DNA from: Anaerolineae bacterium
Lineage (GTDB): Bacteria > Chloroflexota > Anaerolineae > Aggregatilineales > UBA3940
Assembly (NCBI GenBank): GCA_016928235.1
Contig: JAFGLD010000096.1
Span: 3,006-67,005 of the forward strand
Reading direction: 5' to 3'
DNA length: 64,000 nucleotides
In this document: positions 18,582-38,911 of the stretch, one piece after another
Layout: every line of letters starts with the position of its first letter
How positions within the stretch are numbered: the first letter of the stretch is position 1
Program-made: the position numbers and the translations under genes
The notes under the pieces: generated by a model
Seen by the model: the letters and a program-made list of their open reading frames with translations, nothing else
Databases searched by the model: none
Told to the model about the DNA's origin: nothing

Positions 18582-18879
18582 TGGCTTGGACCTATCTAAG
18601 TTACATTCGATATGCAAGTTTTTGATACTGAGGGCAAATCGATGTGAATCCCGCAATATGTAAGCAAGTCATCCATTATCATTTCTTGCCGCATGCCCGA
18701 GATCGGGTCGGCGATCCCTCGTAGGGATGGGGCCGAGCCTATTCGTCGACAGCATCATGACCAGTCGTACAAGACATCGCACATCATTTTGTTACATCAA
18801 TACCAACCGGCTCATCAGGAAAGGGTGCAGGGCTTTATCCGCTCCGCACCCCTGATAACACCGTCATACAATCCCTATT

Positions 18880-21800: not shown

Positions 21801-24486
21801 GGTAATACCCAAACACTTCACTGATCTTATCCACCGTGAGAGGCAACAAGATATCCGGGTTGAGGATCGATGATGCAGCATGAGAGACTTCGTTGACCGC
21901 TTGCAAGCGACGGACACGCACCTGCGATTCGGAGAAGAGACGTAATCCTTCCAAAGCCGTAGCTGCCTGGTCGGCGATAGCTTCAAAAAAGCGCTGATCA
22001 GACTCCGCAAAGACATTAGTGTTATGCTGGCTATGTAGTAGCAACCAACCAAGAATACGCCCACCGGTAATCACAGGAAACTGGGCCATCGACTTAACAT
22101 TAAACCGCCTCAGAGTATCTCTGACATGATCTTCAAGAATGGCTGTTTCTGTGTTGTTGACAACCAGGCCGCTGCCTATCTCGTCCAGATCATATTCCAG
22201 CAATAATGGAAACTGCTCTACAAGCATACGCTCAGGCAGCGCCATCACCTGATCATTGGGATCTCCGGACCAGCGACCCAACAATTGCAACCATCGTCCT
22301 CCCTCTGTCATGCCGGATTCGTCGACCAGAACCACCATGGCACGGTCGATCGTACTACCGCGCATGGCGCCCAGCAGGACATTCGTGAGATTAGGTATGG
22401 AGTCAGCTGCCGCAATCTGCTGGCTTGCTTCGTAGAGTCGGTTGGACTCCATCAGAGAGGCCTGTGTCTGTTCAAAAAGACGCGCATTTTCGATGGCAAG
22501 CGCGACACGATCCAGCACCTGTCCAACCAATAGTCTGTCATCCTCAGAGATAACCTGGCCTGGTTGCAATCGTGTAGCCAATTCGCCGATAACCTCGCCA
22601 CGTAGCGCAATCGGCATATTCACGCGCTGTCCCCTGCCGCCATCTTCGTCATCAACCGGTGACAGTGGACGAACATCGCTCAAGTCATATTTGAAACCGA
22701 CTATTTCAGGCGATTGTTTGCGCCGTGAGACATAGGAGTCCCAGCTCTCGCGGGTAAGCGCCTGAGTCAGTTGGAGTGATGCGGCAAGCAAACTTTCTTT
22801 CTCTTGGAACAGATGAACATTACGAAACGCTGACGCAAGCTGATCTGCAATTGTCTTAAACGCCACAATCGTCTCGTCGTCAAAAGAATCAGGATGGACC
22901 GATTGTATATCCAATGCCCCGATAATCTCATCTCCTACACGCAGAGGAACAGCCAGCTCAGCACGTGTATCCGGTAACAGATCGTTGCGTCGATGGATAG
23001 GGCTATCCTCTGTATCAAGAACAAGAATGGGATCTCCATGCATCGTTGCCTGGCCAATAACTGACTGAGAGCCCACCTGAAGCTTATGGCCACGAGAAAG
23101 CAGCTCCCGGCCAACCGCGCCTGTACTCGCTCGCAGAACAGCATATTGATGCAGGTCATCTGTCATAAAAATCTGGACATGATAGTAATCCAGACGGTCA
23201 CGAATGGTATTAATGGTTGCAGTGAGCAGGCGGTCTAGATCAGTCTCGGTCGCCAGAACACGACTGATCTGGGATGTGATCTCAAGCTGTTGGTTGCGCT
23301 CAGTAATGGTTTTCTGGTGTTTTTCAAGCATTGAACGGGTGCGGCCAAGCATACGATTGAACGCATCTGCCAGCCGACTAAACTCAAGCGCATCGGTCAG
23401 GGGAGCCTCGATATCCATCTCGCCCCCGGCTGCCTGCATGGCAACTGCATATAGACGTTCGACAGGAGAAATAATGCGCCGCGCAAAGAAAACGGCCAAA
23501 ATGATCGCCAACAGGGCGATTATGGCGCCCAAAATTAACTGAGATCCCAGAATACTCTCTACTTCGCCGAGAACCGTTCCAGTATTTGTCGCAACGATGA
23601 GCGACATGTGCAGTGGCGCAATCCAACGATAAACGCCATAGACATGCTGCCCCCGATAGTCGACCCATTCACCTGAACCATCTTGTCCTGACAGCGCCGT
23701 GGCAACGATCTCTTCTTTGGCGAGATCGCCTGCAGCTTGCGGTGGCGGCATCACATAACGTCTTCCCTCCTCTACCAGATAATAATAGCTGGTCTCCGTC
23801 TGAGGAAGATCAAGCAAAATGACCAGAAGGTTTGAGAGCGTGACACGCCCACATAAGACACCAGTGGGAGAAGATGAGCCCTCCGGCTGCACAGCCACAG
23901 CAAAGTATAGACTTGGAACATCCTTCTCATAAGGATCTGCGATTGGCCCAACTGTTACCACTGTATCCGGATTCTGCAAGGCCGCTTGCAACCAAGGCTC
24001 TCCACTAAGATCCGGGTTGGCGAGGTTAAAAACAGGATCGTTGCCACCCAACAGCACTCCGTCAAGATCGACAAGAAACACACGGTCGTAAAGCCCTTGC
24101 ACGCTGGCAAGATAAGGGGTAGCAAGCGCGCTAATTCGTTCTGTAAAGGCTCGTTGCACCTCGGCCTTAGTGGTCGGATCTGCGTCTGGAGGCAAAGTAG
24201 TCAGCTGCTCGATCATAGGAGAAAGAGAAGGGTTGTCTCGGATTTTCAACAACTCAGTTTGACGTTCGGATGCCCATTTTTCTAGTACCGCCGTCTGGAT
24301 ATCCGCCATAGTGTCTAACTGGGTTATAGCCTTTGCTCGCTCGCGAGTCAGGTGGGTTATATTGCTAATTGCAATAAGCCCGGCTATCGGCAGCAAGATC
24401 AGAACAAGAAACACGATCAACAATTGTGTTCTTAAACGTCCCTGTCGTGGTATGAATCGGTTCTGCAATCGTCTTGTGCTACTCAT
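18880..24486 (-). CDS. multi-GAF hybrid sensor histidine kinase (TM - extracytoplasmic domain - TM - HAMP - about 7 GAF - HisKA - HATPase_c - REC - REC)
   Basis: 1868 aa. H-box FLANMSHELRTPLNSI (about 20341-20385). G-boxes DTGIGI / GGTGLGLAISR. REC1 about 19276-19623 (LAVDDE...LLDLNMPNVDG). REC2 about 18976-19257 (ILIVDLDLPDMDG). Repeated GAF cores include YYH(V/A)QIF...VGSQSVIGQ...LLP(D/N)TRAE(L/M)AVPL...IIGALD(I/V)QS. The start overlaps the upstream stop (ATGAGTAG). Confidence 0.9.
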   Translation of the reverse strand: MSSTRRLQNRFIPRQGRLRTQLLIVFLVLILLPIAGLIAISNITHLTRERAKAITQLDTMADIQTAVLEKWASERQTELLKIRDNPSLSPMIEQLTTLPPDADPTTKAEVQRAFTERISALATPYLASVQGLYDRVFLVDLDGVLLGGNDPVFNLANPDLSGEPWLQAALQNPDTVVTVGPIADPYEKDVPSLYFAVAVQPEGSSSPTGVLCGRVTLSNLLVILLDLPQTETSYYYLVEEGRRYVMPPPQAAGDLAKEEIVATALSGQDGSGEWVDYRGQHVYGVYRWIAPLHMSLIVATNTGTVLGEVESILGSQLILGAIIALLAIILAVFFARRIISPVERLYAVAMQAAGGEMDIEAPLTDALEFSRLADAFNRMLGRTRSMLEKHQKTITERNQQLEITSQISRVLATETDLDRLLTATINTIRDRLDYYHVQIFMTDDLHQYAVLRASTGAVGRELLSRGHKLQVGSQSVIGQATMHGDPILVLDTEDSPIHRRNDLLPDTRAELAVPLRVGDEIIGALDIQSVHPDSFDDETIVAFKTIADQLASAFRNVHLFQEKESLLAASLQLTQALTRESWDSYVSRRKQSPEIVGFKYDLSDVRPLSPVDDEDGGRGQRVNMPIALRGEVIGELATRLQPGQVISEDDRLLVGQVLDRVALAIENARLFEQTQASLMESNRLYEASQQIAAADSIPNLTNVLLGAMRGSTIDRAMVVLVDESGMTEGGRWLQLLGRWSGDPNDQVMALPERMLVEQFPLLLEYDLDEIGSGLVVNNTETAILEDHVRDTLRRFNVKSMAQFPVITGGRILGWLLLHSQHNTNVFAESDQRFFEAIADQAATALEGLRLFSESQVRVRRLQAVNEVSHAASSILNPDILLPLTVDKISEVFGYYHAQIFLIDDTNEWAMLHASTGDIGQELLQREHRLAVGSQSVIGQVTAQGEPVIIHDTDTDPIHQRNELLPNTRAEMAVPLRTGDRIIGALDVQSTQVKAFDTEAQVILQSLADQISVTLENAQLFREIQDRVAELTTVNLISQAVSRAETLSDLYDVVATQLQHTFGAQHGFLAVSAEKDMIQLPIFMENGQRIPPIGAIPIGQGLTNYVLKTREVLLINENVQENAQKLDAQISGTIPKSLLAVPLLLGDEIIGVISIQDPDREFAYNETHVRQLTTLAAYISVKIRNAELLDEAQRRASELGFLFNITRAAVATTELDEALSNVTNILLTEIPGAEAAIIHLVSPDDNTLEPHAAVGFGRDIAVRYPRIKLGETVIGMVAEDGIPLVTPNTQTDPRYGEFDDRIQAALIVPLRAGAESIGVLMLASSEVNVFGDRELRLLEAASSTLTAIIQNARLLDQITRANDQLRELDKLKGQFLANMSHELRTPLNSIIGFSRVMLKGIDGPLSDLQSQDLNTIYQSGQHLLGLINDILDISKIEAGKMEIQPDYISLPEIVDGVMATGQGLISDKPIQIFKEIEADLPNVYGDPVRVRGVLLNLVANAAKFTHEGSITIRASHKDYDPETGEPSRVQVDVVDTGIGISQEDIGKLFQAFSQVDGSTTRQVGGTGLGLAISRQFIEMHGGRMWVESEKGVGSIFSFTVPLHAQQQESSDIVFLPKNDDGRPVVLAVDDEPGVLDLYSRYLEKQGYAIVGLSNAGDLLNRVREFQPVAILLDLNMPNVDGWVAIDQLKQAEDTRDIPIVICSIEDARQRANNVGVTEYLVKPIIEEDLLEALNRALGGMVEKALSVLILDGNEQYARTMQETLLLTQRYNANVVGLGHEGLQTLHEQKPDILIVDLDLPDMDGYGLLASLRTQEQTRNLPILIVSSRELPGDAMERLGESLTAYLNKNEATPEQLLAALATTWEKVPK

Positions 24487-26680
24487 AGCTGTCGTCCAGT
24501 TTCTCTCGCCGCAACTGTACGCTGGTTTGAGGAGCGCGTAACACGCGGCCTAATTCCTTCACGGTTGTTTGTAAAATTTGATTCACATCAGTAGTGCCGA
24601 CGATCTTTGCTGTGATGGCATTGATAATCTGCTCATGCTCGGCCCGGCGAGCAGTCTGCTCCATCAAACGCAGGTTCTCGAGTGCCAGCCCCACACGGTC
24701 GATCACTGCCTCAACCAGGGCAACATCGTCACCCGTTAACTTTCTAACCGTCTCGCCACCAAAACCAAAAGCTCCAATAACTTCACCGCGCACCTTGATT
24801 GGCACAGCCAGACTAATACCGTCTTCACCATCATCAAGTGACACCAACTGCCCACTCCGAACAGCTTGTCCCATCGGAGACGGGGATCGATTGGTGAATG
24901 GCTCGATCCTCTCATCCTCAAACTCATAGGCAAGCGGTACATCCGCATCGTGCGACTGACGATAGGCGTTCCAGGCTTCAGCTGTGATGCGGCGTTCCAG
25001 CATCTCTATGTTATCCAGAGCGTCCTTTAGCTCTCCGTGTAAACGAGCATTCTCCAGTGCAATAGCAAGCTGGTCAGCCATAATTTGAAAAACAGCCACA
25101 TCGTCCTGGTCGAAAGCATTAGGCGCGACACTCTGCAAATCCAGTGCTCCAATGACCTCATCACCAATGCGCATGGGTAGAGCCATTTCAGAGCGCGTAT
25201 CCGGCAACAGCTCATTGCGCCTATGGACCGCACTACTATCTGTATCGGAGGCAATGACTGGCTCACCGCGCGATGTCACCTGTCCAATGACTGACTGTGA
25301 GCCAACTGATAGTGCATGTCTGCGAGCCAGCAGTTCACGCCCGGCAGTACCCGTGCTGGCTGTCAATACAGCATTTTCTTTTTTGTTGTCAACCAGGAAT
25401 ATCTGAGCATGATAAAAGCCAAAGCGATGCCGAATCAACTCTACAATTTCATTCATCAAATCGCGAGGGTCACGCAATGTCACCACAGCTCGCCCAATAT
25501 CACCTGTGATGCTCAGCTCTCTCGTGCGCTCTGCTACCCGCTGTTCCAATCCGGTGATCAACCCATCAAGTTGGGTTACCAGCACATTGAAACTGTCGCC
25601 CAATTGACTAAACTCATCCTTGCCTTCAACACTTATCCGTGTCTGTAGATTGCCTGCCGAGATACGCCTGGACGCGTCGAGTATCCCCCATAGATTTCGA
25701 GAGATATCACGGCCAAACACCATGGGGATAAACCCACTCGCTACAATCCCCACAGCCATCACAATCATCAAGAAGATACGCTGACTATTGAGTGTAGCCA
25801 TCATGATATCAAGCGGAGAACCAACTCTATCTTCTACAACATTGTTGAGACGTGAAGTTTCGTTACGTAAGTCCGACAATGCGTTTTGAGCAGTATTGCC
25901 GATAACATCAATTTGCTCAACCTGGACAACGATGGATGACGCATTCTCTCGATACACCTGCAATAACTCGGCTTCATTACGTCTTCGATCCTCTGGGATT
26001 TGAGATTCGTAAATCTCCTGATATTTGACAATGGCTTGCTGGAAGACTATATAATCTTCCGACGCTTCTGATTGAATCACCACAGTCTCTAATGTACGCA
26101 AGGTATCTGCCTGACTGTTTAGAGATGCATCGTTTAATCTGGCCGTTGCAGTTCGTAATTGTTCCCCGGACTGCCGGAAACGGGTAATTGTACCGGAATC
26201 TGATGATGACAACTGTTGAACCAAGGCAATAATATTCAGGAAACTGACCCTTGAGGTGTTAGCCTTAGATTTAATGACATCTACTTGTGCCTGGAGCGCC
26301 CCGTGAGTTGCGTTGTCCGGAAGCCTTGCGCTGAGTTCCAGGAGTTGCTCTGTGTGTCCATTGAGGCTTTCGCTGATGTCAATATAGTTCGGAGGCAACG
26401 ATAGGATCAGCGGATCGAGGCCCGGCTGTCGATATTCATTGAGCAGCCTGTTCTGTAGACTCTGAAGACTCTCGACCTCTAACTGAATGTCTTGCGCCAG
26501 CGAACGCATCTCAATAGTCAACGCCATCGTGTTGTCCATTTGACGCCGGACAGCATTCAAAGCCAATAGACTTGACGACATCATCAAGGCAGTGAGTATC
26601 ATGAGCGAGACAGAAAGCAAAGCTGACTTTACTTGAATGGACAAGTTACGCCAGACAAAGAATTTATAGAAATGCTGCAC
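24479..26680 (-). CDS. output-less sensor: TM - ~270-aa helical extracytoplasmic domain - TM - HAMP - GAF - GAF - truncated GAF stub
   Basis: 733 aa with a GTG start after GGGAGG. GAF core FGFYHAQIFLVDN...VGSQSVIGQVT...HRRNELLPDTRSEMALPM...VIGALDLQS. I saw no kinase, cyclase or HTH motif. Confidence 0.85.
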   Translation of the reverse strand: MQHFYKFFVWRNLSIQVKSALLSVSLMILTALMMSSSLLALNAVRRQMDNTMALTIEMRSLAQDIQLEVESLQSLQNRLLNEYRQPGLDPLILSLPPNYIDISESLNGHTEQLLELSARLPDNATHGALQAQVDVIKSKANTSRVSFLNIIALVQQLSSSDSGTITRFRQSGEQLRTATARLNDASLNSQADTLRTLETVVIQSEASEDYIVFQQAIVKYQEIYESQIPEDRRRNEAELLQVYRENASSIVVQVEQIDVIGNTAQNALSDLRNETSRLNNVVEDRVGSPLDIMMATLNSQRIFLMIVMAVGIVASGFIPMVFGRDISRNLWGILDASRRISAGNLQTRISVEGKDEFSQLGDSFNVLVTQLDGLITGLEQRVAERTRELSITGDIGRAVVTLRDPRDLMNEIVELIRHRFGFYHAQIFLVDNKKENAVLTASTGTAGRELLARRHALSVGSQSVIGQVTSRGEPVIASDTDSSAVHRRNELLPDTRSEMALPMRIGDEVIGALDLQSVAPNAFDQDDVAVFQIMADQLAIALENARLHGELKDALDNIEMLERRITAEAWNAYRQSHDADVPLAYEFEDERIEPFTNRSPSPMGQAVRSGQLVSLDDGEDGISLAVPIKVRGEVIGAFGFGGETVRKLTGDDVALVEAVIDRVGLALENLRLMEQTARRAEHEQIINAITAKIVGTTDVNQILQTTVKELGRVLRAPQTSVQLRREKLDDSYE

Positions 26681-26825
26681 TACGCAACCTCCCAGTATAC
26701 CTAACGAGACATCTCACTCATATTTCACGAGGACAAAGGCCTGATGACAATTCCTTAGGTTCTGTTGACATTCGTGCTCAAAATCCGCGCCCTGGATATA
26801 CAGAAATGTCAACAAAACCTAGAAA

Positions 26826-28607
26826 CTAAACTTCCGGAAGTCCTCCTGCTGTAGCAGCAGGCATTGGGCCAGTAGTATCTGGAATATCTACATTGAGTGC
26901 TTCTACTTCCTTGGGGCTAATCTGTACAATACCTCGTGAGGCGCCAAGAACAGAACTCAACTCTGTCAATGCAGATTGTAGGATCTCATCGATACTCTCT
27001 GCCTCTTGCACATCCTGAGCGATCCGGTTGACAACGTGCTCGCGCTCAGCAGCCAGGGTTGCCTGTTCGTAAAGACGCGCGTTTTCTACAGCCAGCCCCA
27101 GACGGTCAACCATCGTCTCAACCATCTCGATCTCCATGTCTGTCCAGGGGCGGCTACCTTCACGCTCTATCTCTAAAACGCCGACGACTTCGCCGCGAAT
27201 GCGTAACGGTATAGCAGCAATATGCGCCTGTTGATCCTGACGGATAACGACACTTCGCTCTCCACTAAAAGCCTGACGCATCGGAGCTGTCCAACTCGTA
27301 TCTGCTTGAACACGCTTACCCTGCAAAGTGTAGCCCATTGTACCTGGTGCGCGGTGCGAACGTAGATATTCCGTCCAGCCCTCGCGGGTCAACTGGCGAT
27401 TCAACACCTCGATCTGACGCAGGTTGGTCTGGGCATCTTCGAGAAGCGTCTGATGTTCTGCCGCACGTCTCTGCAATTCTGTTACCAGCCGGTTTCTTTC
27501 GATAAAGCCCGCCAACTGGTTAGCAATGACCTGGAGTGCATTAATATCTTCCGGGAAGAAGGAATTTTGCGCGACACTTTGGACATCCAGTGCTCCGATG
27601 ACATTTTCGCCGATCATGAGCGGTAAGGCTACCTCTGCGCGTGTATCCGGCAGTAGCTCGTTGGCATGGTATATGGAGCTGGTCTGGACATCATTGACAA
27701 TAACAGGTTGTCCATAATATGTTGCCTGCCCAACGATGGAGCGGGAGCCAACCATTAATGCATGTCCATTTGTCAAAAGCATCGCTCCAGCATGACCGGT
27801 ACTGGACTCAAGACGCGCCATACTGAGACGGGGGTTCTCACGACTACGCTGCTGATCAAGGAGAAAAACCTGAACATGGTAGAAACCGAAAACTTCACGA
27901 ACACGTTCGACAGCCATGCTCAACAAGCCTGAAACGCCGGTTGCTGTGGTAACAGCCTGATTGATCAGCGCGGCTGCTTCCAGCTGGCTGGCCTTACGCT
28001 GAGTGGTCTGCCCCCAGTCTAGCAACGCTCTGATCAAGAAAATGGTCACGCCATATAAAATTAGCAGAACCACTCCCGATATAACAGCTGAGCCAATTGA
28101 GGTCTCCGCATCAGCCCCGATCTGGATGTAAAGATAAGCGATTGCTGCTGTGCTTACCCCTGCAACCAGGGTAAAGAAGAAACCCCAGACTGCATCCAGC
28201 AGCATACAGGCGATCAAAATCGGAAGAGCAAAAGCCCCTATAGCCACATTGGAAAAGCCATAAGGAGAGCTGGCCCAGAATACCACCGCAATAAGAGCCA
28301 ATACAAATCCTATGCTGGCCCATCGTAGCGCGCCCGTATTCACCAACCAATACAAGCCTGCACACACCAAACCTAAAATGAAACCGATTGTAGCCGTCCG
28401 TTCGGGCGCGCCGGGCACAAACCACGTTGTAACAGCGCCCAACAAACTCAAAATACCAATAACGATGCATAGCCCTGCCAGCATCCTGGCCCGCTGGTAC
28501 ACCAGGGTATCTGCATAGGTATGATGAAAGTCAAACAACCTCTCAACAGGCCCTATGTGTGAACGAGGCGGTACAACAGGCTGTGGCAGTGGTGCTCTAC
28601 TAGACAT
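26826..28607 (-). CDS. output-less sensor: about 6 TM helices - GAF - GAF - truncated GAF stub
   Basis: 593 aa. GAF core FGFYHVQVFLLDQ...VGSRSIVGQAT...NELLPDTRAEVALPL...VIGALDVQS. The start overlaps the upstream stop (ATGTCTAG). Confidence 0.85.
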   Translation of the reverse strand: MSSRAPLPQPVVPPRSHIGPVERLFDFHHTYADTLVYQRARMLAGLCIVIGILSLLGAVTTWFVPGAPERTATIGFILGLVCAGLYWLVNTGALRWASIGFVLALIAVVFWASSPYGFSNVAIGAFALPILIACMLLDAVWGFFFTLVAGVSTAAIAYLYIQIGADAETSIGSAVISGVVLLILYGVTIFLIRALLDWGQTTQRKASQLEAAALINQAVTTATGVSGLLSMAVERVREVFGFYHVQVFLLDQQRSRENPRLSMARLESSTGHAGAMLLTNGHALMVGSRSIVGQATYYGQPVIVNDVQTSSIYHANELLPDTRAEVALPLMIGENVIGALDVQSVAQNSFFPEDINALQVIANQLAGFIERNRLVTELQRRAAEHQTLLEDAQTNLRQIEVLNRQLTREGWTEYLRSHRAPGTMGYTLQGKRVQADTSWTAPMRQAFSGERSVVIRQDQQAHIAAIPLRIRGEVVGVLEIEREGSRPWTDMEIEMVETMVDRLGLAVENARLYEQATLAAEREHVVNRIAQDVQEAESIDEILQSALTELSSVLGASRGIVQISPKEVEALNVDIPDTTGPMPAATAGGLPEV

Positions 28608-30867: not shown

Positions 30868-32726
30868 CAGGCTCTCACTTCCTCAGACTTGCCAGATATC
30901 GGCCTCTCATCCGTAGGACCCTTTTCTTCTCTGGCTGTCTCAGCATCTTTGTTGCTATCGGATACATTTTTACCGCTTTGTGAAATGGGGTGATCCATGC
31001 TGATCTCTGCATACACATTATCGGTGCCCAGTGCTTGCGACAGTTCCCTGGTAGCACTTTCCAGCAATAACGCCAGGCTGGGGGCACGCTGTAATCGCGA
31101 GGCAATGGTATTGATCAGATATTCTCGGTTAGCAGCACGTTGAGCCTGCAGATAGAGACGAGCATTTTCGACTGCCAGCGCCGCTCTTTCTGCTATCCCC
31201 TGGATCAGAAGCAAGTCATCCTGAGACCATTCCCGTGTATCGTCCGGCTCGACGCCGATCACACCAACTACTTCATTGCGTACGACAATCGGAGCTGCCA
31301 GGAATGCCTTCCTTCCATCGGCTCCAGAAGAGACAATAACCGAGCCGGAGCCAAGCACACGCTCGACGACACGGCTGCGGTGTATTTCCATTGCCTTCGA
31401 TTCCACCCCATGGACCTGCCGACGCTCTTCCTGCCGAGTCTCCGACAGGAAATCAATCCAGGACCGATGTGTTGTCGTACGGCTGAGCTCGCTTAGCTCG
31501 CGCAGGTTCTCTTCGGCCATCTCAAATAACTGTGCATTCTTGATCGCAACAGCAAGCTGATCGGCCAGGGCCCGAAATGTGGGGAACATCTCCTCTTCGA
31601 AGGCATCCGGCTCGACACTTTGCAGATCAAGAGCGCCAATGACCTGGTTGCCAACGATCAGGGGAATTGCCATCTCGGAGCGAGTCAGCGGCAACAATTC
31701 GTTGCGACGATGTATAAAGTCCGTGTCTGTATCCCTGGCAATTACAGGTCTGCTACTGGCTGTTACCTGCCCGATGACACTCAAACTACCCACCGGGAGA
31801 CGATGTCCACGAGCCAACAGAGCTTTCCCGACGTCGCCGGTACTCTGTCGCAAGACCGCATATGACTCTTCCGCGTCGACCAGAAAAACTTGAACATGAT
31901 AATATCCAAACGTCTCACGAATGAGACGCACAATATCTTCCATAAGCTGGTCAAGGTTGCGTGCCCCGGCCACGGTACGAGCTACCGATGTCGTTGCCTG
32001 AAGCTGGCGTGTCTGTGTTTGAAGGCGAGCCTCCATCTCGTGGCGCTGTTCGACAATCGCCAAATTCAATTTAGAACTTTCCTGAAATGCCTGTCGCATA
32101 GTACGCGAGAACAGCCAGGAAATGACTGCCACAAAGAATAGATTGACATAAACCAGGAGTGTCTGTGATGATGCGCCGCCAGCAAAAATGGTGTGTGTGT
32201 ACTCAGGCTCAATCCGAAGATTGAGGACAAAGTAGGCAGTTCCGGCCAGAATAGCCACCACTACAGCCGAGAAAGGCGGACCAAAGAAACCCGCAACAAT
32301 AACAGGGACTGTAATCGAGAGAGCTGTTGCCGTCATCGGCCCGGTTTGTTCAACCAATGCAATGGAAAGGCTCAGGAGCGCCACCGACAATAGCATACCG
32401 GCGGCAGTGGTCAGTCCTCGTCGGTTAAGGATATAGAGGAATACCCACACAACAGTCAATACAATGCCATAAGAGATCGTTATACCAGAAATACGTACTG
32501 CCAGATCGATCGAGTTGACATTATGCGCCACAATTGCCGCAATCAACGTCAACAACTCGGTAAGAATCAGAACGACAGCCAACAAACGTCCCTGGCGTGC
32601 CTGACCCGATGCAGGGGACTGAGATCGCAGCAACCAATCGATTGCATTTTTCCAGAAAGATGGGTTAGGAGAGGTTTTGTTATCAGTCATAGGTTCCCTG
32701 TGAAGGTCATCCCTTGAATGTGTCAT
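30867..32726 (-). CDS. output-less sensor: about 6-7 TM helices - GAF - GAF - truncated GAF stub
   Basis: 619 aa. GAF core FGYYHVQVFLVDA...VGSLSVIGQVT...HRRNELLPLTRSEMAIPL...VIGALDLQS. The start may instead be the ATG at 32690. Confidence 0.85.
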   Translation of the reverse strand: MTHSRDDLHREPMTDNKTSPNPSFWKNAIDWLLRSQSPASGQARQGRLLAVVLILTELLTLIAAIVAHNVNSIDLAVRISGITISYGIVLTVVWVFLYILNRRGLTTAAGMLLSVALLSLSIALVEQTGPMTATALSITVPVIVAGFFGPPFSAVVVAILAGTAYFVLNLRIEPEYTHTIFAGGASSQTLLVYVNLFFVAVISWLFSRTMRQAFQESSKLNLAIVEQRHEMEARLQTQTRQLQATTSVARTVAGARNLDQLMEDIVRLIRETFGYYHVQVFLVDAEESYAVLRQSTGDVGKALLARGHRLPVGSLSVIGQVTASSRPVIARDTDTDFIHRRNELLPLTRSEMAIPLIVGNQVIGALDLQSVEPDAFEEEMFPTFRALADQLAVAIKNAQLFEMAEENLRELSELSRTTTHRSWIDFLSETRQEERRQVHGVESKAMEIHRSRVVERVLGSGSVIVSSGADGRKAFLAAPIVVRNEVVGVIGVEPDDTREWSQDDLLLIQGIAERAALAVENARLYLQAQRAANREYLINTIASRLQRAPSLALLLESATRELSQALGTDNVYAEISMDHPISQSGKNVSDSNKDAETAREEKGPTDERPISGKSEEVRA

Positions 32727-32989
32727 TCAAGAGCCCGCAAAAAAATTCTTATTATGCCACCGAGACGAGCCTGCATTCAACGATAATCTTTACCCTGGTT
32801 CATGATGTTAATCCCCCTGTTAGGGCATGAACGGGCAGTGATGAGATTGTGTTGTTTGTATTTTGCTCAAAAAGCGCACTTTCTCTAACAAGCATACACC
32901 AGTTTTAATACCTGTTGAATCGCGGGCCTTTTGCCACCATTTCCACATAAGCAAACGTGCTGTGAACAGAGCCACGCCTTCTAAATGGG

Positions 32990-34648
32990 TTACTTTTCGT
33001 CTTTCTTCTTTTCCGTGTCGTACTCCATAACCAGATGAACAAAACTCGTCGGCGTTTCCAGCGCATGGCTAGCCGTTCTGGCAACAATACGAAGAAGCGT
33101 GTTCAAGTCAGTGGTAGACTGAAGCTCCGCAGAGAGGCGGCTCATCACCTCCTCACGCTCGGCATGATGCTGAGCTTGCTCACCCAGGCGTGTGCTGTCC
33201 AGCGCCATCGCGACACGCTCCGCTACCGCTTCAAGCATGTTCTTAGTTTCTTCATCGGGCTCACGGTCACCCCGCGGTGTCAGATCCAACATCCCGATCG
33301 TCTCACCTCGAACCGTTAAGGGGAGCGTCACTGTCCCGCCACCAGGCTGTCCGCCCTCGGAACCCTCAGAGGCTTCGATTTGCGGTTTGGCCTCACCCAC
33401 ATCATCGACTTTGAGCGGCCTGACCCCTTGCTGACTGGCTTCATAACCCAGAGGCGATTCGCCGGGACGGTCTGATAGAAATTTACGCCATGATTGCCCG
33501 GTAAGCTGCCGATTCAGGGACTCGATATCTTGCAGGTCGCGCTGGGCACGCTCAAACAAATGCACATTCTCAATTGCAATAGCGATCTGATCTGCCATGG
33601 CCTGGAAACCGGAGATATCCGATGCCGCAAAAGCTTCGACGCTGGTGCTGTGAATATCGACCACACCAATTACCTGATTTTCCACTCGCAGCGGCAAGGC
33701 TATCTCAGAGCGGGTACCGGACAGCAAATCGTTGTGTTGATACGCCGGATAAACACTGGTATTGGGGATGATAACTGTCTCGCCGCTTTGGATAACCTGA
33801 CCAATCACTGATTGGGATTTGATGGGTATCTGGTATAAGCGCGAGACCAGTTCCTGCCCTATTGAGCCTGTGCCGGCCTTAATGACCGCGCTCCTCTTTC
33901 CTTCATCGATCAGAAGGATTTGTGCATAGTAAACATCGAATCGCTCAGAGATCAGATCGACAGCTTGTTTGAGCAAATGATCCAGGTTGCGAGTGCCTGT
34001 AATCGTACGCCCAATCTCGGCCACAGCCATGATTTTTCGAGCATCACCATCTGGAGCTTGATCCGTCTGATGCAAATCAGATATTTGCTGCTGGATCAAT
34101 CGCAAATCACGTTCCCTCAAAAGCGATGTTCCTACCGCCATGGCAGACACAATAACCGTGATCAGGAGTGAGAAATAGTACTGTCCTATGTTGGATTGTG
34201 GAATGAGCACAAGACCAAGCCCGACTCCCAAATTGGCGATCACAACGGACACGATTGTTGTTCGCGCGGGTAAAAGGAGCATGGCAAACAAGATCGGGAC
34301 CAAGACAAAAAGCGAAGCCTGAGATAGATTAACATGGTCGCGAAGGATATACAGATTGGCCAGCACCAGAGCCAGTTCCCCAAACACCAGTAAACCGGCT
34401 CCCAGTTTTGCCTGGCGTATACGACTTAACAGGTAGACAAGTAGGAAGAGAATGGGATGTGGTAAGGCTAAAACAGCCAGCGAGGTGAAGGCCAAACCAA
34501 TGGCAACCAACACACTTACAAGAAACAACACCAGTGACAATCGGGATAACAGGCGTGCCCGCTGTCTTTGTATGGGTTCCGTTACACTGGAATGTGGCTC
34601 TGTTAGCCGTTGCCACAGGGTTTGAGTGGTAAATTCTTGCATGCTCAT
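32990..34648 (-). CDS. output-less sensor: about 6 TM helices - GAF - GAF - truncated GAF stub
   Basis: 552 aa. GAF core FDVYYAQILLIDE...KSQSVIGQVI...HNDLLSGTRSEIALPL...VIGVVDIHS. Confidence 0.85.
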   Translation of the reverse strand: MSMQEFTTQTLWQRLTEPHSSVTEPIQRQRARLLSRLSLVLFLVSVLVAIGLAFTSLAVLALPHPILFLLVYLLSRIRQAKLGAGLLVFGELALVLANLYILRDHVNLSQASLFVLVPILFAMLLLPARTTIVSVVIANLGVGLGLVLIPQSNIGQYYFSLLITVIVSAMAVGTSLLRERDLRLIQQQISDLHQTDQAPDGDARKIMAVAEIGRTITGTRNLDHLLKQAVDLISERFDVYYAQILLIDEGKRSAVIKAGTGSIGQELVSRLYQIPIKSQSVIGQVIQSGETVIIPNTSVYPAYQHNDLLSGTRSEIALPLRVENQVIGVVDIHSTSVEAFAASDISGFQAMADQIAIAIENVHLFERAQRDLQDIESLNRQLTGQSWRKFLSDRPGESPLGYEASQQGVRPLKVDDVGEAKPQIEASEGSEGGQPGGGTVTLPLTVRGETIGMLDLTPRGDREPDEETKNMLEAVAERVAMALDSTRLGEQAQHHAEREEVMSRLSAELQSTTDLNTLLRIVARTASHALETPTSFVHLVMEYDTEKKKDEK

Positions 34649-34682
34649 ATTGTCAATCCCTGGTGAATCTTGTTATGACATC

Positions 34683-36698
34683 TCATAGCTCGCTCGTATC
34701 CTTGCCGGCCGATGATAAGCTACCAGCATCTCCTGATGCCGACTTATCGGAGGGAAATAAGCGAACTTTGATATCATACTCGTCCAATGCCGAGATCAGA
34801 GTACGTACCGTTGTCTCCAACACGTCATTGATATCTGTTGCTCGCTGGAGCTGTGCCGTCATATTGCTGACTATCTGTTCACGTGCCGCCGACTTTTTGA
34901 TTTGCTCCAGCAATTTTAGATTCTCAGAAGCACTTGAGACCTGTACGGCAACATTCTCGAACAGTTCTCGCTGTTCACGCGTCAGATCAGGATACAGATC
35001 GGCCTTGAGACCTTTTTCCGCCAGTTGATCACGGGAGAGCCCCAACACAGCGGCCAACTCGGCAATTGCCACATTGTTAATCTCATCGGTTGTCTCCGCA
35101 CTGTGAAGGCGATTAGAAATATTGAGCAAAATCTGCTCATAACCAACCACCTGCTGAGTACGGGCCAACAACAGTTGGGCATTGAGCCCTAGAGCCGTCT
35201 GATCGGCCAGACTGCGACATAGACGTGCCTGATCGCCCGAGAAAGTTTGTCCCTGCCTGCCCTCGAAGAGAATAGTCCCTAACCAGGTAGCACTAGAGCT
35301 AAGTGGAATCAGCATTAAGGCATGTACATTTTCACGGACATAAATAGTTCGCAGATCGACACTCAAGCGCGGATCGGTTTGAAGATCGTTGAATACGAGG
35401 TTGGATCGAGATTGGGGAAATTGCATCAGTATGGGTATCTGAGATGGCAAATAACGTATCGGCGGCGATTGGATTATCAATTGGCCATGTTGCCATACTG
35501 CAGTAGTCTCGATGTATTCCATGTCCCTAAGCGGATCAGGGCCTATAAGATAAATGGTGATGTGCTCGGATCCGCTTACATCTGCCATCTTCTCAAGAAC
35601 AGTTGCATAAATCTCGTCCACGTGTTGGGCAGCGCTGATTGCCAATGAGACGCTATAGAGCATCGTGGTTTCATCAAGAGACGATTCTAAATGCTTGATG
35701 GTACGCATGGCTTGCAGTGCCGCTGCCATTTGCACCGCTGCCTGTTCACAGATAGGGATATCATCTGGTAAAAGGGTGATATCGGTATGCCCTCCCACAT
35801 TCAACGTCCCTAAAATCTGGTCTCCAACGACCAGCGGTGCCACAATTAGCTTATATACGTCAATCGACTGCCAAAGTGAGCTATCAGCCCAACCGCCTAG
35901 TTCTTCGAAAAGGATTGCTGCGTCACGTGATATCGCCTGTTTGATCCGCGAGCCCGCTAATGGTATACGAGCAGGCATTTGTTCACCCTTGATGAGTATC
36001 AACTCGGCATCCGGGTGATCAGAGGTAATCAATGCTATGCTGATGTGGCTAGCTGGAAGAAACTCGTTTAGCCTGGTAGCTACTATTTCTCCCAGATTCT
36101 CGAAGTCAGATACATCCGACAGATCATGTGCCAGGTCGGCGGCTAAGGTAGCCTGTGCAGTTCGCCGATTGAGAATGTTGTCCAGTTCTCGATTTTCTAA
36201 AACAGTCCCAATATGGCAAGCCAGTATTTCCAGATGGCGTATCTGATCAATGTTATATTGATGCGGCTTATGCATGCCAAGTACCAGATAGCCCGTAATA
36301 TGCTGACGCCTGTTTAATGGAAGAATGATCAGGCTGGCGGCCTGAAGCACACTTTCCGCATAAGGCTTGACTGATAAGAGGGAATTATCAATCTGATCGA
36401 TGTCAGATATCACAACCGGGTGATCATCAACCAGCCGCCTGATGGTATCAGGCAGAGGTTCAGCATGTGTCAACCCATCACGATCCCAGTCTACGATAAC
36501 TCTAGCAGTAATCAAACCATCTTGACTGATGTTTTCCCCGATCAAGATGATGCAGTCAGCATCCGGCATGACATGCTGGCGGATAATTGCTACGATCTCT
36601 TCTGGGCTGTTGATGCTGGTAATAGCACGCATCGCCTGAAAGATCGATGCACAACGATCTAATAGAGCATCTTCGGAGGTAGAGATAGTACCACTCAT
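34683..36698 (-). CDS. soluble multi-GAF protein (3-4 divergent GAF domains) ending in the same truncated GAF stub
   Basis: 671 aa with no TM segment. GAF-like cores ITGYLVLGMHKP, ILGTLNVGGH and WLGTILFEGRQG. The C-terminal stub is shared with the five downstream paralogues. Confidence 0.75.
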   Translation of the reverse strand: MSGTISTSEDALLDRCASIFQAMRAITSINSPEEIVAIIRQHVMPDADCIILIGENISQDGLITARVIVDWDRDGLTHAEPLPDTIRRLVDDHPVVISDIDQIDNSLLSVKPYAESVLQAASLIILPLNRRQHITGYLVLGMHKPHQYNIDQIRHLEILACHIGTVLENRELDNILNRRTAQATLAADLAHDLSDVSDFENLGEIVATRLNEFLPASHISIALITSDHPDAELILIKGEQMPARIPLAGSRIKQAISRDAAILFEELGGWADSSLWQSIDVYKLIVAPLVVGDQILGTLNVGGHTDITLLPDDIPICEQAAVQMAAALQAMRTIKHLESSLDETTMLYSVSLAISAAQHVDEIYATVLEKMADVSGSEHITIYLIGPDPLRDMEYIETTAVWQHGQLIIQSPPIRYLPSQIPILMQFPQSRSNLVFNDLQTDPRLSVDLRTIYVRENVHALMLIPLSSSATWLGTILFEGRQGQTFSGDQARLCRSLADQTALGLNAQLLLARTQQVVGYEQILLNISNRLHSAETTDEINNVAIAELAAVLGLSRDQLAEKGLKADLYPDLTREQRELFENVAVQVSSASENLKLLEQIKKSAAREQIVSNMTAQLQRATDINDVLETTVRTLISALDEYDIKVRLFPSDKSASGDAGSLSSAGKDTSEL

Positions 36699-38131: not shown

Positions 38132-38911
38132 TCAATTCTTAGTGCTCTCAGGATTTTGTGTCTGAGAGCCTTGATTATGGGTAGGCGACACTTGAGAGCC
38201 CTGCGATTGAGCATCTTGAGGTTGAGAGCTTTTTTCTTGCGTTTCGGTTGGCTGCAAGCCTGGAGTTGGTGGGTCAGCAGGTCGACCAGGCACGTTCGGT
38301 GCCTGGATAGGCTGAACGATCGGGCTTGGCGATCCGGCTGATTGGATACCAGATTCGGGCGGACTGGCAGGTTGGGCACCCGGGGTTGGCGAGCCGGCAG
38401 GTTGGACACCAGAACCTGGCGGACTGGCAGGTTGAGCACCCGGGGTTGGCGGACTGGCAGGTTGAGCAATTGGGCTCTGCGGACCGGCAGGTTGGGTATC
38501 CAGACTTGTTGATGAGCTTGCCGGCTGAGGAGTCTGACCATCTTTCCTCAAATGCTTCTCGATCTGTTTTGGAAGGTTATCCACATCTATCGGCTTAGGT
38601 ATGTAACCATTACACCCGGCATCCATAGCCTTTTTAATATCACCTTCCATAGCATTGGCCGTCAGTGCCACTATAGGGACATGTGCCCCACCGGTCGCCT
38701 TGCGCAATCGATCGGTACATTCGTACCCATCAATGTCGGGCAGATTGATATCCATCAAGACAAGATCGGGATGGGTACTCAATGCTAACTCCAGCCCCTT
38801 GGTTCCATTTTCCGCCTCGATGACAGTGAAGCCTTCTGCCTCTAACACACGCTTGATCAAGATGCGGTTATCAAAGTTGTCCTCAATGTAGAGAATGCGT
38901 TTCCCACTCAT
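38132..38911 (-). CDS. single-domain response regulator: N-terminal REC plus a P/Q/A/S-rich decapeptide-repeat tail
   Basis: REC: KRILYIEDNFDN...DLVLMDINLPDIDG...IVALTANA...GYIPKP. The tail is AQPASPPTPG / AQPASPPGSG / VQPAGSPTPG / AQPASPPESG and so on. There is no DNA-binding or enzymatic domain. Confidence 0.85.
   Translation of the reverse strand: MSGKRILYIEDNFDNRILIKRVLEAEGFTVIEAENGTKGLELALSTHPDLVLMDINLPDIDGYECTDRLRKATGGAHVPIVALTANAMEGDIKKAMDAGCNGYIPKPIDVDNLPKQIEKHLRKDGQTPQPASSSTSLDTQPAGPQSPIAQPASPPTPGAQPASPPGSGVQPAGSPTPGAQPASPPESGIQSAGSPSPIVQPIQAPNVPGRPADPPTPGLQPTETQEKSSQPQDAQSQGSQVSPTHNQGSQTQNPESTKN
38328..38500. repeat. 30-nt tandem repeat, about 5-6 copies, inside the coding sequence
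   Basis: GGCGGACTGGCAGGTTG(G/A)GCACCCGGGGTT-type units, read directly at a 30-nt period. Confidence 0.85.

What the first reader, a model, noticed from the sequence alone, without database searches (positions are those of the whole stretch)
24479..36698. All six output-less paralogues end inside the N-terminal helix and first strand of an extra GAF domain
Seen in the sequence: after the last complete GAF and an (E/D)N(A/L)(R/K)L..(E/Q) linker, each of the six proteins ends with the same ~45-aa module.
- AEHEQIINAITAKIVGTTDVNQILQTTVKELGRVLRAPQTSVQL
- AEREHVVNRIAQDVQEAESIDEILQSALTELSSVLGASRGIVQI
- VEREQRVNEVSANLLQRASSVDTVLRSALNELSAALGSDRVSLRI
- ANREYLINTIASRLQRAPSLALLLESATRELSQALGTDNVYAEI
- AEREEVMSRLSAELQSTTDLNTLLRIVARTASHALETPTSFVHL
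- AAREQIVSNMTAQLQRATDINDVLETTVRTLISALDEYDIKVRL
Each is then followed by a short, non-conserved acidic or low-complexity tail.
This pattern (helix, loop, L..LG....V.L) is how a canonical GAF domain begins. In the 1868-aa kinase the equivalent position (ENARLFEQTQASLMESNRLYEASQQIAAADSIPNLTNVLLGAMRGSTIDRAMVVLV) continues into a full GAF.
Inference: a fragment kept across six paralogues is probably functional. It could be a docking or strand-complementation element, a cap folding back on the preceding GAF, or a hetero-oligomerisation tag.
Basis: partly seen in the sequence, partly recalled or inferred. Interest (0 to 1): 0.75.

Follow-up and report, generated by a model that had tools for sequence, protein, structure and literature searches.

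The report
Split GAF domain links sensor proteins
Six sensor proteins without an output domain each end in the first third of a GAF domain, and co-evolution across 77 related gene clusters indicates that this fragment plugs into an incomplete GAF domain in the protein of the next gene, chaining the sensors head-to-tail onto one histidine kinase.

Summary
All six minus-strand proteins (24479-36698) end with a ~45-aa module plus a variable tail. The module aligns to the N-terminal a1-a2-b1 segment of solved cyanobacteriochrome/phytochrome-type GAF domains.

It is not a truncation artefact:
- 444 copies occur in 77 Anaerolineae loci, 2-12 per locus, with a median tail of 11.5 aa.
- It is better conserved among orthologues than the rest of each protein.

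New findings:
- The "last GAF" before the stub in p1-p5 and in the kinase is incomplete. This "W-core" lacks exactly a2-b1.
- AlphaFold and direct-coupling analysis give no support for the stub folding back onto its own core.
- Pairing each stub with the W-core of the next gene downstream gives the strongest couplings in the whole matrix. They fall on canonical GAF a1/a2-a5 and b1-b6 contacts. Every other gene offset is negative.
- The clusters mostly follow one grammar: donor-only first gene, acceptor+donor middle genes, acceptor-only kinase.
- An R/Q swap rule held in 11 of 11 loci left out of training.

Best reading: a GAF domain split between neighbouring genes assembles p6>p5>p4>p3>p2>p1>kinase. 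This rests on computation only. I found no description of it in the literature searched.

The parts
24512..24643 (-). p1 C-terminal stub (a1'-a2'-b1'), the donor predicted to dock on the kinase W-core
   Evidence: Exact peptide. The coupling model trained on distant loci ranks the kinase core first for this stub (19.85 against 9.07 or less).
24662..25021 (-). p1 W-core: incomplete GAF (W-helix, hairpin, a4, b5-b6, a5) lacking a2-b1; acceptor for the p2 stub
   Evidence: Pfam half-profile match. AF2 secondary structure. Column mapping.
26919..27050 (-). p2 stub (donor to p1)
   Evidence: Offset +1 coupling.
27069..27425 (-). p2 W-core (acceptor for the p3 stub)
28732..28866 (-). p3 stub (donor to p2)
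28885..29223 (-). p3 W-core (acceptor for the p4 stub)
31002..31133 (-). p4 stub (donor to p3)
   Evidence: The model trained on distant loci ranks p3's core first for this stub.
31152..31508 (-). p4 W-core (acceptor for the p5 stub). It has Ala at column 106, paired with Val at column 149 of the p5 stub, a size-compensated pair.
33032..33163 (-). p5 stub (donor to p4)
33182..33538 (-). p5 W-core (acceptor for the p6 stub)
34758..34889 (-). p6 terminal stub. p6 is the donor-only chain initiator: it has three GAF matches and no W-core.
35010..35150 (-). p6 inner stub-like copy, followed only by an a5-like helix and then the terminal stub
   Evidence: Stub HMM E=0.009. p6-type first genes in L001-L005, L010 and L011 also show an inner stub match ahead of the terminal one.
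22474..22785 (-). W-core of the 1868-aa hybrid histidine kinase (aa 568-671), the acceptor-only terminator of the chain
18880..24486 (-). Hybrid kinase: dCache-HAMP-GAF-W-core-GAFs-HisKA-HATPase-2xREC. Its start codon overlaps the p1 stop by 8 nt.
24479..36698 (-). Array of six co-directional genes for stub-ended sensor proteins (p1-p6). Junctions p2/p3 and p3/p4 overlap by 8 nt and 1 nt.

Best explanation
**Proposal**
The ~45-aa stub is the donor half of a GAF domain that is split between neighbouring genes.

**Components**
- Each middle protein (p1-p5) has a sensor/membrane module, a complete GAF, and an incomplete GAF that I call the W-core. The W-core has a Trp-containing entry helix, a hairpin, a4, b5-b6 and a5, but no a2 or b1.
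- The a5 of the W-core continues as one long helix into the stub (a1', then a2', then b1').
- The stub does not complete its own W-core.
- It completes the W-core of the protein encoded by the next gene downstream. There a1' and a2' pack on the acceptor's a5, and b1' pairs antiparallel with the acceptor's b6, as inside an ordinary GAF.

**Resulting assembly**
- This gives a directional, non-covalent chain: p6 (donor only) > p5 > p4 > p3 > p2 > p1 > kinase (acceptor only).
- The chain would rebuild a long tandem-GAF rod. At each junction a further sensor module enters through the W-helix.

**Inference only**
- Each reconstituted GAF acts as a node that merges the state of the upstream chain with its own sensor input.
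- The kinase would thereby integrate six or more inputs.

**Shown versus inferred**
- Shown: the sequence anatomy, conservation, gene grammar and residue-level co-evolution.
- Inferred: physical docking, stoichiometry and signal relay.
For: **1. The stub is a GAF start**
- It aligns to a1-a2-b1 of solved GAFs.
- The stub profile also hits GAF starts inside multi-GAF kinases.

**2. The acceptor lacks exactly what the stub has**
- Pfam matches only the C-terminal half of the GAF profiles.
- AF2 shows hairpin, a4 and b5-b6-a5, with no a2 or b1.

**3. Fused ('Rosetta stone') forms exist elsewhere**
- Proteins with repeats of [core+stub] occur in other organisms.
- In AF2 model 2 the inner stub's b1 is a strand (E166-172) directly followed by the strands of the next core. 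The terminal stub's b1 is coil.

**4. Inter-protein co-evolution**
- Stub(k) paired with W-core(k+1) gives top couplings of 3.87 and 2.74.
- At gene offsets -3 to -1, 0, +2 and +3 the top value is 1.56 or less.
- The result is reproducible in both halves of the loci and without the close clade.

**5. The coupled pairs are canonical GAF contacts**
- With 370 pairs, the nine strongest couplings of the whole matrix are inter-protein.
- 106-149 equals canonical pair 36-162 (rank 6), 84-161 equals 48-140 (rank 21), and 97-125 equals 12-153.
- The ladder 85-159, 84-161, 83-162, 82-163 has the near-constant column sum expected of antiparallel strands.
- Equivalents of the top canonical couplings are enriched at offset +1 (p=1e-4 overall; 3e-6 to 3e-3 in the subsets).
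- There is no enrichment for a protein's own core (p=0.62) or the upstream core (p=0.34).

**6. A near-perfect compensatory swap**
- Core column 105 = Q goes with stub column 137 = R/W in 103 of 106 pairs.
- Core column 105 = R goes with a non-R/W residue in 258 of 262 pairs.
- Self-pairing violates this rule: 34 RR and 20 QS pairs.

**7. Held-out test**
- Eleven kinases with a minimal acceptor fragment were not used for the coupling model.
- All have Q at column 105, and the last donor upstream has R in 11 of 11. In four of these loci no other donor has R.

**8. Partner prediction**
- Five-fold cross-validation: 250 of 362 correct, against 66 by chance.
- Model trained on distant loci: 29 of 76 correct, against 13.6 by chance.

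**9. Gene grammar**
- The first gene is donor-only in 21 of 27 loci with upstream sequence.
- Middle genes are acceptor+donor in 293 of 314 cases.
- All 34 kinases directly after an array carry one partial GAF lacking a1-a2-b1.

**10. Selection and co-expression**
- The stub is the best-conserved long segment of each protein; only the 12 residues of a5 next to it score as high or higher in four of the five sets.
- Adjacent genes overlap or abut, which fits co-translational ordered assembly.
Against: **No direct evidence**
- There is no experimental or structural evidence of a complex.

**The acceptor may not need a partner**
- AF2 folds the W-core confidently without a donor (pLDDT about 80-95).
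- Within-protein couplings link the W-helix to b6 (9-82) and a5 (14-111, 17-115), the same elements the donor is predicted to pack against, so it may cover part of that site.
- The acceptor may therefore be stable alone, and docking may require displacing or sharing that surface.

**Specificity is incomplete**
- In the window, the model trained on distant loci ranks the downstream partner first for only 2 of 6 donors.
- Specificity may be partial, or the model may be underpowered.
- The five-fold cross-validation figure is inflated by related loci falling in different folds.

**Exceptions to the grammar**
- 19 donor-only genes sit inside arrays.
- 6 of 27 first genes have a core.

**Methodological limits**
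- The stub-to-canonical column mapping was not validated by intra-stub couplings (p=0.31).
- Mean-field DCA does not remove phylogenetic signal.
Confidence: 0.72

Rival explanations
1. **Cis cap.** The stub is a helical hairpin that terminates and stabilises the a5 signalling helix of its own W-core, or completes that core as a circular permutation. No other protein is involved.
For: - The number of cores equals the number of stubs in every protein.
- AF2 gives high pLDDT for the stub in the monomer: 90 for the helices and 86 for the b1' segment.
- A few own-core/stub couplings exceed a permutation null: 71-154, 105-164 and 74-126.
Against: - AF2 never pairs the terminal b1' with the preceding sheet, in either model.
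- Equivalents of canonical a2-a5 and b1-b6 couplings are not enriched for a protein's own core (p=0.56-0.62). The core-by-core positive control is enriched (p=8e-4).
- The R/Q rule is violated in self-pairing.
- This reading cannot explain the offset +1 specificity.
- It also fails to explain the acceptor-only kinase or the donor-only first gene.
Confidence: 0.08
2. **Co-inheritance artefact.** Arrays grow by tandem duplication of a unit running from the stub of one gene to the W-core of the next. The two segments would then share history and covary without touching.
For: - Gene order is conserved and the arrays are clearly products of duplication.
- Mean-field DCA does not correct for phylogeny.
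- The strongest pair (105-137) behaves like a two-state subfamily marker.
Against: - Co-inheritance predicts coupling among all subfamily-specific columns, not selectively at columns equivalent to intradomain GAF contacts.
- Seven of the top pairs map onto top-100 canonical couplings.
- The b6/b1' pairs form a register-consistent antiparallel ladder.
- The sequences are only 25-40% identical, so unselected linkage should have decayed.
- The rule also holds for kinases with a different, minimal acceptor architecture.
Confidence: 0.1
3. **Homodimerisation or docking on a different partner.** Two stubs would form a four-helix bundle at the end of a parallel dimer, or bind a common partner such as one of the receiver proteins of the operon.
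For: - GAF linker helices commonly form dimeric coiled coils (general knowledge of tandem-GAF structures).
- The strongest intra-stub coupling, 138-159, joins the two ends of a2' and is hard to satisfy within one hairpin.
- REC genes flank the arrays.
Against: - Each paralogue keeps its own distinct stub sequence, which argues against a single common partner.
- This reading does not account for couplings to the downstream core.
- It is compatible with, rather than exclusive of, the split-GAF chain, since dimers could chain.
Confidence: 0.07
4. **Truncated pseudogenes or assembly artefacts.** The six proteins would be remnants of longer multi-GAF kinases.
For: The stub is what a kinase cut after b1 of its third GAF would look like.
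Against: - 444 stubs occur in 77 independent assemblies. 95% have tails of 50 aa or less, and the stop position is conserved.
- The stub is more conserved than the rest of the protein.
- 71 of 72 database relatives end the same way.
Confidence: 0.01

Closest known systems
Donor-strand complementation / exchange in chaperone-usher pili (e.g. Pap and Fim pilins)
   Same: - Each subunit has an incomplete fold that is completed by a short segment of the neighbouring subunit.
- This gives a directional head-to-tail chain.
- Donor-acceptor specificity sets the order, and there are dedicated end subunits.
- This comparison rests on established knowledge and is an analogy only.
   Different: - Pilins are periplasmic Ig-like structural proteins that donate one N-terminal strand with the help of a chaperone and usher.
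- Here the fold is a cytoplasmic GAF signalling domain.
- The donor is C-terminal and supplies two helices plus a strand.
- The chain ends in a histidine kinase, and the order follows gene order.
- There is no sequence or fold relationship.
Tandem-GAF sensory modules in one polypeptide (PDE2/5/6, cyanobacterial CyaB1/2, phytochrome GAF-PHY, multi-GAF histidine kinases)
   Same: - The domain is the same.
- The a5-to-a1 helix between consecutive GAFs is continuous in the same way: 45-residue helices.
- Foldseek top hits are GAF and tandem-GAF structures.
- The stub aligns to the first ~45 residues of such GAFs.
   Different: In those proteins all elements of every GAF lie on one chain. Here one GAF per junction is divided between two gene products, and a second sensor module enters at each junction.
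Stand-alone GAF accessory sensors acting on kinases (e.g. NreA with NreB in Staphylococcus)
   Same: An output-less GAF-containing sensor encoded next to a sensor kinase and acting through protein-protein contact (general knowledge). p6 gave a below-threshold match to the NreA model, E=0.009.
   Different: NreA is a single complete GAF. No fold complementation, chain or orphan fragment is involved.
Naturally split proteins reassembled from two genes (e.g. split DnaE inteins)
   Same: One fold is encoded in two pieces that find each other with high specificity (general knowledge).
   Different: Split inteins splice and are lost. Here the reconstituted domain would be a permanent structural and signalling junction, repeated serially.

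Membership tests
GAF domain (Pfam clan; PF01590 / PF13185 / PF13492) | Sequence homology of the stub to the N-terminal a1-a2-b1 segment of GAF domains | tested here: met
   - The module profile aligns its stub segment to residues 8-53 of 8w26_A and 2lb5_A, and the a5-plus-stub segment to 126-181 of 6oap_A; 6ozb, 6bhn, 8k9o and 6uv8 also match. Per-domain E-values run from about 1e-3 down to 2e-9.
- The stub HMM weakly hits the starts of complete GAFs in the kinase.
- It hits 3-10 internal GAF starts per protein in multi-GAF kinases.
GAF domain (Pfam clan; PF01590 / PF13185 / PF13492) | A complete fold on one chain: six-stranded sheet flanked by a2/a5 and a3/a4 | tested here: not met
   - The protein ends 10-44 aa after b1'.
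- No Pfam GAF match covers the stub.
- AF2 leaves b1' as coil.
- The stub alone is therefore a fragment, not a GAF domain.
Circularly permuted GAF (stub completes its own preceding core) | The terminal b1' pairs with the preceding sheet, and a2' packs on the same chain's a5 | tested here: not met
   - No strand at b1' in two AF2 models.
- Canonical-equivalent couplings are not enriched for a protein's own core (p=0.56-0.62). The core-by-core control gives p=8e-4.
Inter-subunit fold complementation (donor-strand-exchange-like chain) | An acceptor subunit with an incomplete fold that lacks the element carried by the donor | tested here: met
   - The W-core matches only the C-terminal half of the GAF profiles.
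- AF2 shows no a2 or b1 in it.
- All 34 kinases after arrays carry one partial GAF.
Inter-subunit fold complementation (donor-strand-exchange-like chain) | Donor and acceptor residues on different polypeptides covary at positions that are contacts in the intact fold | tested here: met
   - Couplings appear at gene offset +1 only.
- They map to canonical pairs and form an antiparallel b6/b1' ladder.
- The R/Q swap rule holds, and held in 11 of 11 left-out loci.
Inter-subunit fold complementation (donor-strand-exchange-like chain) | A physical complex in which the donor segment is inserted into the acceptor fold | not testable with these tools
   No multimer prediction, no model coordinates and no experiments were available.
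Histidine-kinase DHp (HisKA) helical hairpin | A two-helix hairpin with a conserved phospho-acceptor His (H-box), followed by a catalytic domain | tested here: not met
   - No HisKA or HATPase match in p1-p6.
- No conserved His in the stub alignment.
- The second helix is only ~15 residues.

The most novel reading that the evidence does not exclude
Anaerolineae assemble a multi-subunit sensory machine by serial trans-complementation of split GAF domains, in the order of the genes in the operon.
- A donor-only initiator starts the chain.
- Four to ten sensor proteins follow, each both accepting and donating.
- An acceptor-only hybrid histidine kinase ends it.

Each reconstituted GAF would be a three-way junction. 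It would merge the upstream chain's state with a new membrane or ligand sensor, so that one kinase computes on many inputs through a non-covalent tandem-GAF rod.
Probability: 0.55. Interest if true: 0.92.

Novelty: categorically new. Interest (0 to 1): 0.88.

Why it matters
**What it would establish**
- If confirmed, it would be a mode of signal-transduction assembly I found no description of. A sensor domain would be divided between adjacent genes, with donor-acceptor specificity encoding an ordered hetero-oligomer.
- It would explain thousands of 'GAF domain-containing proteins' that have no output domain. The stub profile hits 10,123 representative proteins, although many of those hits are ordinary GAF starts.
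- It would explain why these proteins always sit in arrays upstream of giant multi-GAF kinases.

**What it would make possible**
- It is a natural, programmable docking pair. A short a1-a2-b1 tag binds an incomplete GAF, with identifiable specificity residues such as columns 105/137 and 106/149.
- It would allow a direct test of how signals pass through GAF-GAF junctions.
- It is also a clear case of operon gene order mirroring assembly order.

Tried and rejected
**Hypotheses tested and rejected**
- Circular permutation or cis complementation was my first hypothesis. It was rejected by two AF2 models and by the own-core coupling test.
- Truncation or assembly artefact was rejected by distribution and conservation.
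- A DHp-like or kinase remnant was rejected: no His, and no HisKA match.

**Searches that gave little**
- NCBIfam: no family for the stub.
- Pfam: only a weak DUF3369 (GAF-like) match over the p2 stub.
- The search for homologous proteins returns mostly fragments of query-like length, so it could not show full architectures.
- The metagenome scan with an L028 query gave only 3 loci.
- Foldseek on model 1 returned generic GAF and tandem-GAF hits and nothing about the stub.
- The listing of cluster members gave no taxonomy for the multi-unit proteins.
- Literature searches for permuted, split or swapped GAF, and for Anaerolineae GAF kinases, found nothing relevant.

**Limit of the mapping**
- Mapping intra-stub couplings onto the canonical GAF N-segment was not significant (p=0.31).
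- The residue mapping may therefore be off by a position in a1/a2.

Full report
**1. Observation**

The region holds six co-directional minus-strand genes, here called p1 to p6:

| Gene | Coordinates | Length |
|---|---|---|
| p1 | 24479-26680 | 733 aa |
| p2 | 26826-28607 | 593 aa |
| p3 | 28600-30867 | 755 aa |
| p4 | 30867-32726 | 619 aa |
| p5 | 32990-34648 | 552 aa |
| p6 | 34683-36698 | 671 aa |

- Directly downstream lies an 1868-aa hybrid histidine kinase (18880-24486).
Each is followed by only 10-44 residues.
- An HMM of the six stubs finds nothing comparable elsewhere in the six-frame window. It gives only weak matches to the starts of complete GAFs in the kinase and to one inner copy in p6.
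- Pfam finds dCache, HAMP and GAF in p1-p6, plus a sub-threshold MASE6-like match over a membrane region of p2, but no output domain. The kinase is dCache-HAMP-GAFx5-HisKA-HATPase-2xREC.
- One correction matters for everything that follows. In p1-p5 the domain preceding the stub matches only the C-terminal half of the GAF profiles (for example GAF_3 59-129). It is not a complete GAF.

**2. The stub is a real, widespread, selected C-terminal module**

- 71 of 72 database relatives of the C-terminal module end with the stub plus a tail of 0-67 aa.
- A scan of one genome per species returned 76 loci. Nearly all are named Anaerolineae or Chloroflexota MAGs, and they include Anaerolinea thermophila.
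- In these loci plus the window the stub HMM finds 444 copies, 2-12 per locus.
- The tail after the stub has a median of 11.5 aa, and 95% of tails are 50 aa or less.
- Only 10 copies are internal, about seven of them the inner copy in p6-type first genes.
- Among 10-13 orthologues of each paralogue, mean pairwise identity is:

| Segment | Identity |
|---|---|
| Stub | 0.59-0.82 |
| Preceding 100 aa | 0.42-0.61 |
| N-terminal part | 0.35-0.52 |
| Tail | 0.14-0.28 |

- Truncation or assembly artefact is therefore excluded.

**3. The stub is the start of a GAF domain**

- A profile search of all PDB sequences aligns the stub to residues 8-53 of 8w26_A and 2lb5 (SyB-Cph1 GAF). It also aligns within 126-181 of 6oap_A and to other cyanobacteriochrome-type GAFs.
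- These regions are the N-terminal a1-a2-b1 of those sequences.
- An exhaustive search of 1.84 billion representative proteins with the stub profile gave 10,123 hits at E<=1e-3. They fall into two classes:
  - Multi-GAF kinases with 3-10 weaker internal matches spaced 170-200 aa apart. These are ordinary GAF starts.
  - Proteins that end in a high-scoring stub.
- Some of the second class contain two or three repeats of [core+stub].
- In those inner repeats the stub is followed directly by the hairpin, b5-b6 and a5 of the next core, so stub plus core is a minimal canonical GAF.
- The first core after GAF1 has a Trp-containing helix in place of a2-b1. I call this the W-core.
- In every such protein the number of cores equals the number of stubs, but the register is shifted by one.

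**4. Structure prediction**

Model 1 covers p1 aa 385-733, with 75 sequences, pLDDT 90.4 and pTM 0.72.
- It shows a canonical GAF1 followed by a 52-residue helix.
- The W-core has a hairpin, one helix and b5-b6.
- A single 45-residue helix follows (a5 plus a1' of the stub), then a 15-residue a2'.
- The b1' segment is coil, with pLDDT 86.

Model 2 is a two-unit protein, P0097 aa 391-713, pLDDT 80.
- The inner stub's b1 is a strand (E166-172), directly followed by the strands of the next core.
- The terminal stub's b1' is again coil.

Foldseek gave only generic GAF and tandem-GAF matches.

**5. The stub does not complete its own core**

- Direct-coupling analysis used 468 [W-core+stub] sequences (Meff 417).
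- The strongest pairs lie within the stub (the a1'/a2' hairpin) and within the core. Only a few own-core/stub pairs lie slightly above a permutation null.
- For comparison, 1183 complete GAFs from the same loci show strong a2-a5 and b1-b6 couplings.
- The equivalents of these couplings between the stub and its own core are not enriched (median rank 1485 of 2573, p=0.56).
- The core-by-core positive control is enriched (p=8e-4).

**6. The stub co-evolves with the W-core of the next gene's product**

- I concatenated the stub of gene k with the W-core of gene k+offset across all loci.
- Only offset +1 (the downstream neighbour) gives a signal, with top couplings of 3.87 and 2.74.
- Offsets -3, -2, -1, 0, +2 and +3 give 1.56 or less.
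- Enrichment of canonical-contact equivalents is p=1e-4 at +1 and 0.12-0.88 elsewhere.
- The two top pairs recur in both halves of the loci and after removing the window's close clade.
- Adding donor-only proteins and kinases gives 370 pairs (Meff 358). The nine strongest couplings of the entire matrix are then inter-protein:

| Pair (core-stub) | Score | Canonical equivalent |
|---|---|---|
| 105-137 | 4.80 | not a top canonical pair |
| 106-149 | 3.11 | 36-162, rank 6 of all canonical pairs |
| 31-154 | 2.91 | core column outside the mapped range |
| 113-145 | 2.46 | not a top canonical pair |
| 97-125 | 1.97 | 12-153 |
| 81-150 | 1.62 | not a top canonical pair |
| 102-132 | 1.61 | not a top canonical pair |
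| 83-162 | 1.56 | not a top canonical pair |
| 84-161 | 1.54 | 48-140, rank 21 |

- The pairs 85-159, 84-161, 83-162 and 82-163 have a near-constant column sum, which is the signature of an antiparallel b6/b1' ladder.
- The a1'-a5 pairs run parallel and the a2'-a5 pairs antiparallel, as in complete GAFs.
- Column 105 of the acceptor and column 137 of the donor swap cleanly:
  - Q pairs with R/W in 103 of 106 cases.
  - R pairs with Q/S/G/V/T in 258 of 262 cases.
  - Self-pairing shows 34 RR and 20 QS violations.
- In the window every acceptor has R and every donor has Q or V at these columns.
- The one acceptor with Ala at column 106 (p4) is paired with the one donor with Val at column 149 (p5).

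**7. Independent checks**

Gene grammar
- The first gene is donor-only in 21 of 27 loci with upstream sequence.
- Middle genes are acceptor+donor in 293 of 314 cases.
- The kinase is acceptor-only.
- The window reads -S, CS x5, C-K.

Kinase acceptor sites
- All 34 kinases lying directly after an array carry exactly one partial GAF lacking a1-a2-b1.
- 21 have a W-core. The other 13 have a partial GAF missing its N-terminal part. In most it is a minimal b5-b6-a5 fragment at the kinase N-terminus, for example in A. thermophila (L069).
- The minimal fragment is the exact complement of the stub. It matches the fused mini-GAFs seen in P0141 and P0145.

Held-out loci
- Eleven of those minimal kinases were not used to derive any coupling.
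- All 11 have Q at column 105, and the last donor upstream has R at column 137 in 11 of 11.
- In L038, L042, L067 and L069 no other donor has R.
- Background R/W frequency is 36%, although the loci are related.

Partner prediction
- Five-fold cross-validation gives 250 of 362 correct against 66 by chance. This is inflated by related loci in different folds.
- A model trained only on distant loci gives 29 of 76 against 13.6 in the window's clade.
- That model ranks the kinase core first for p1's stub by a wide margin. It is right for only 2 of 6 donors in the window.

**8. Context**

- The operon is conserved across the loci: a small REC, then 3-11 stub-ended sensors, then a multi-GAF hybrid kinase, then in most of these loci a PALP enzyme, often fused to a REC domain.
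- In the window, p1 and the kinase overlap by 8 nt, as do p2 and p3. p3 and p4 overlap by 1 nt.
- This is consistent with coupled translation and ordered assembly.

**9. Interpretation**

- Best explanation (confidence about 0.7): the stub is the donor half of a GAF domain split between neighbouring genes.
- It docks on the W-core of the next protein, building the chain p6>p5>p4>p3>p2>p1>kinase.
- Because each donor's a1' is continuous with its own a5, the assembly would reconstitute a tandem-GAF rod. A further sensor module would enter through the W-helix at each junction.
- That the chain relays and integrates signals into one kinase is inference only.
- Main rivals:
  - A phase-shifted duplication unit producing covariation without contact. 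The contact-specific pattern argues against this.
  - A cis cap. This was tested and is not supported.
  - Homodimerisation, which is compatible with the chain rather than exclusive of it.
- Weak points:
  - No complex has been seen or modelled.
  - The W-core folds alone in AF2.
  - The gene grammar has exceptions.
  - Partner discrimination within the window is imperfect.

**10. Comparison and novelty**

- The closest mechanistic analogue is donor-strand complementation in chaperone-usher pili.
- The closest structural relatives are single-chain tandem-GAF modules.
- The closest functional relatives are stand-alone GAF co-sensors such as NreA.
- None of these combines a split signalling domain with a gene-order-encoded chain ending in a kinase.
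- Pfam and NCBIfam have no model for the stub.
- Full-text searches found no description. The library does not cover subscription journals.
- I rate it categorically new, conditional on experimental confirmation.

Noticed in passing
window 16920-18656 (-): A pyridoxal-phosphate enzyme (PALP, threonine-synthase-like) is fused to a C-terminal receiver domain and sits directly downstream of the kinase. A PALP gene follows the kinase in most of the related loci where the kinase is in view, in about half of them detectably fused to REC. It may be the metabolic output of the system.
   Followed up: partly
window 36860-38038 (-) and 38132-38911 (-): Two receiver-domain proteins lie upstream of the array. 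The 392-aa one has a ~250-aa N-terminal low-complexity region with repeats such as AEAGSKPAVEAK(S/P)TEE(S/A)RP. A small REC gene precedes the array in about 20 of the related loci.
   Followed up: partly
window 24479-24486, 28600-28607, 30867: Start and stop codons of neighbouring genes overlap: p1/kinase and p2/p3 by 8 nt, p3/p4 by 1 nt. This suggests translational coupling of proteins predicted to dock on each other.
   Followed up: yes
window 34683-36698 (-), aa ~517-600 of p6: The donor-only first protein has an inner stub-like copy followed by only an a5-like helix (LTREQRELFENVAVQVSSASENLKLLEQ) and then the terminal stub. It looks like a GAF that has lost its whole sheet. An inner stub match is also seen in the first genes of L001-L005, L010 and L011.
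   Followed up: partly
L069 11789-15811; also L027, L038, L042, L048, L053, L054, L067: In these clusters the kinase is soluble. After ~90 low-complexity residues it begins with only b5-b6-a5 of a GAF (for example ...WATLQVVDE...EEQLLVKQVADQLSLALENARLFQ). This is a minimal acceptor that exactly complements the stub.
   Followed up: yes
L073, L044, L075, L043, L078 (chain strings): Some arrays contain donor-only genes in the middle, for example L073: -S CS CS CS -S CS CS CS CS CS CS. These may be two chains in one operon, or cores too divergent for the HMM. The stub upstream of such a gene would then have no obvious acceptor.
   Followed up: no
stub columns 138 and 159 (p1 aa ~695 and ~716): The strongest within-protein coupling joins the a1'-a2' loop to the a2'-b1' junction, at opposite ends of a 15-residue helix. 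It is not explained by a single hairpin. It may be a subfamily marker or a contact made only in the assembled state.
   Followed up: no
window 52473-56966 (+) and 56997-57692 (+): A second large histidine kinase (1497 aa) with an adjacent receiver protein lies on the opposite strand. It has no stub-ended neighbours.
   Followed up: no
window 16000-42000: The operon region has lower G+C (0.48-0.52) than the flanks (0.54-0.60), and a persistently negative GC skew on the + strand.
   Followed up: no
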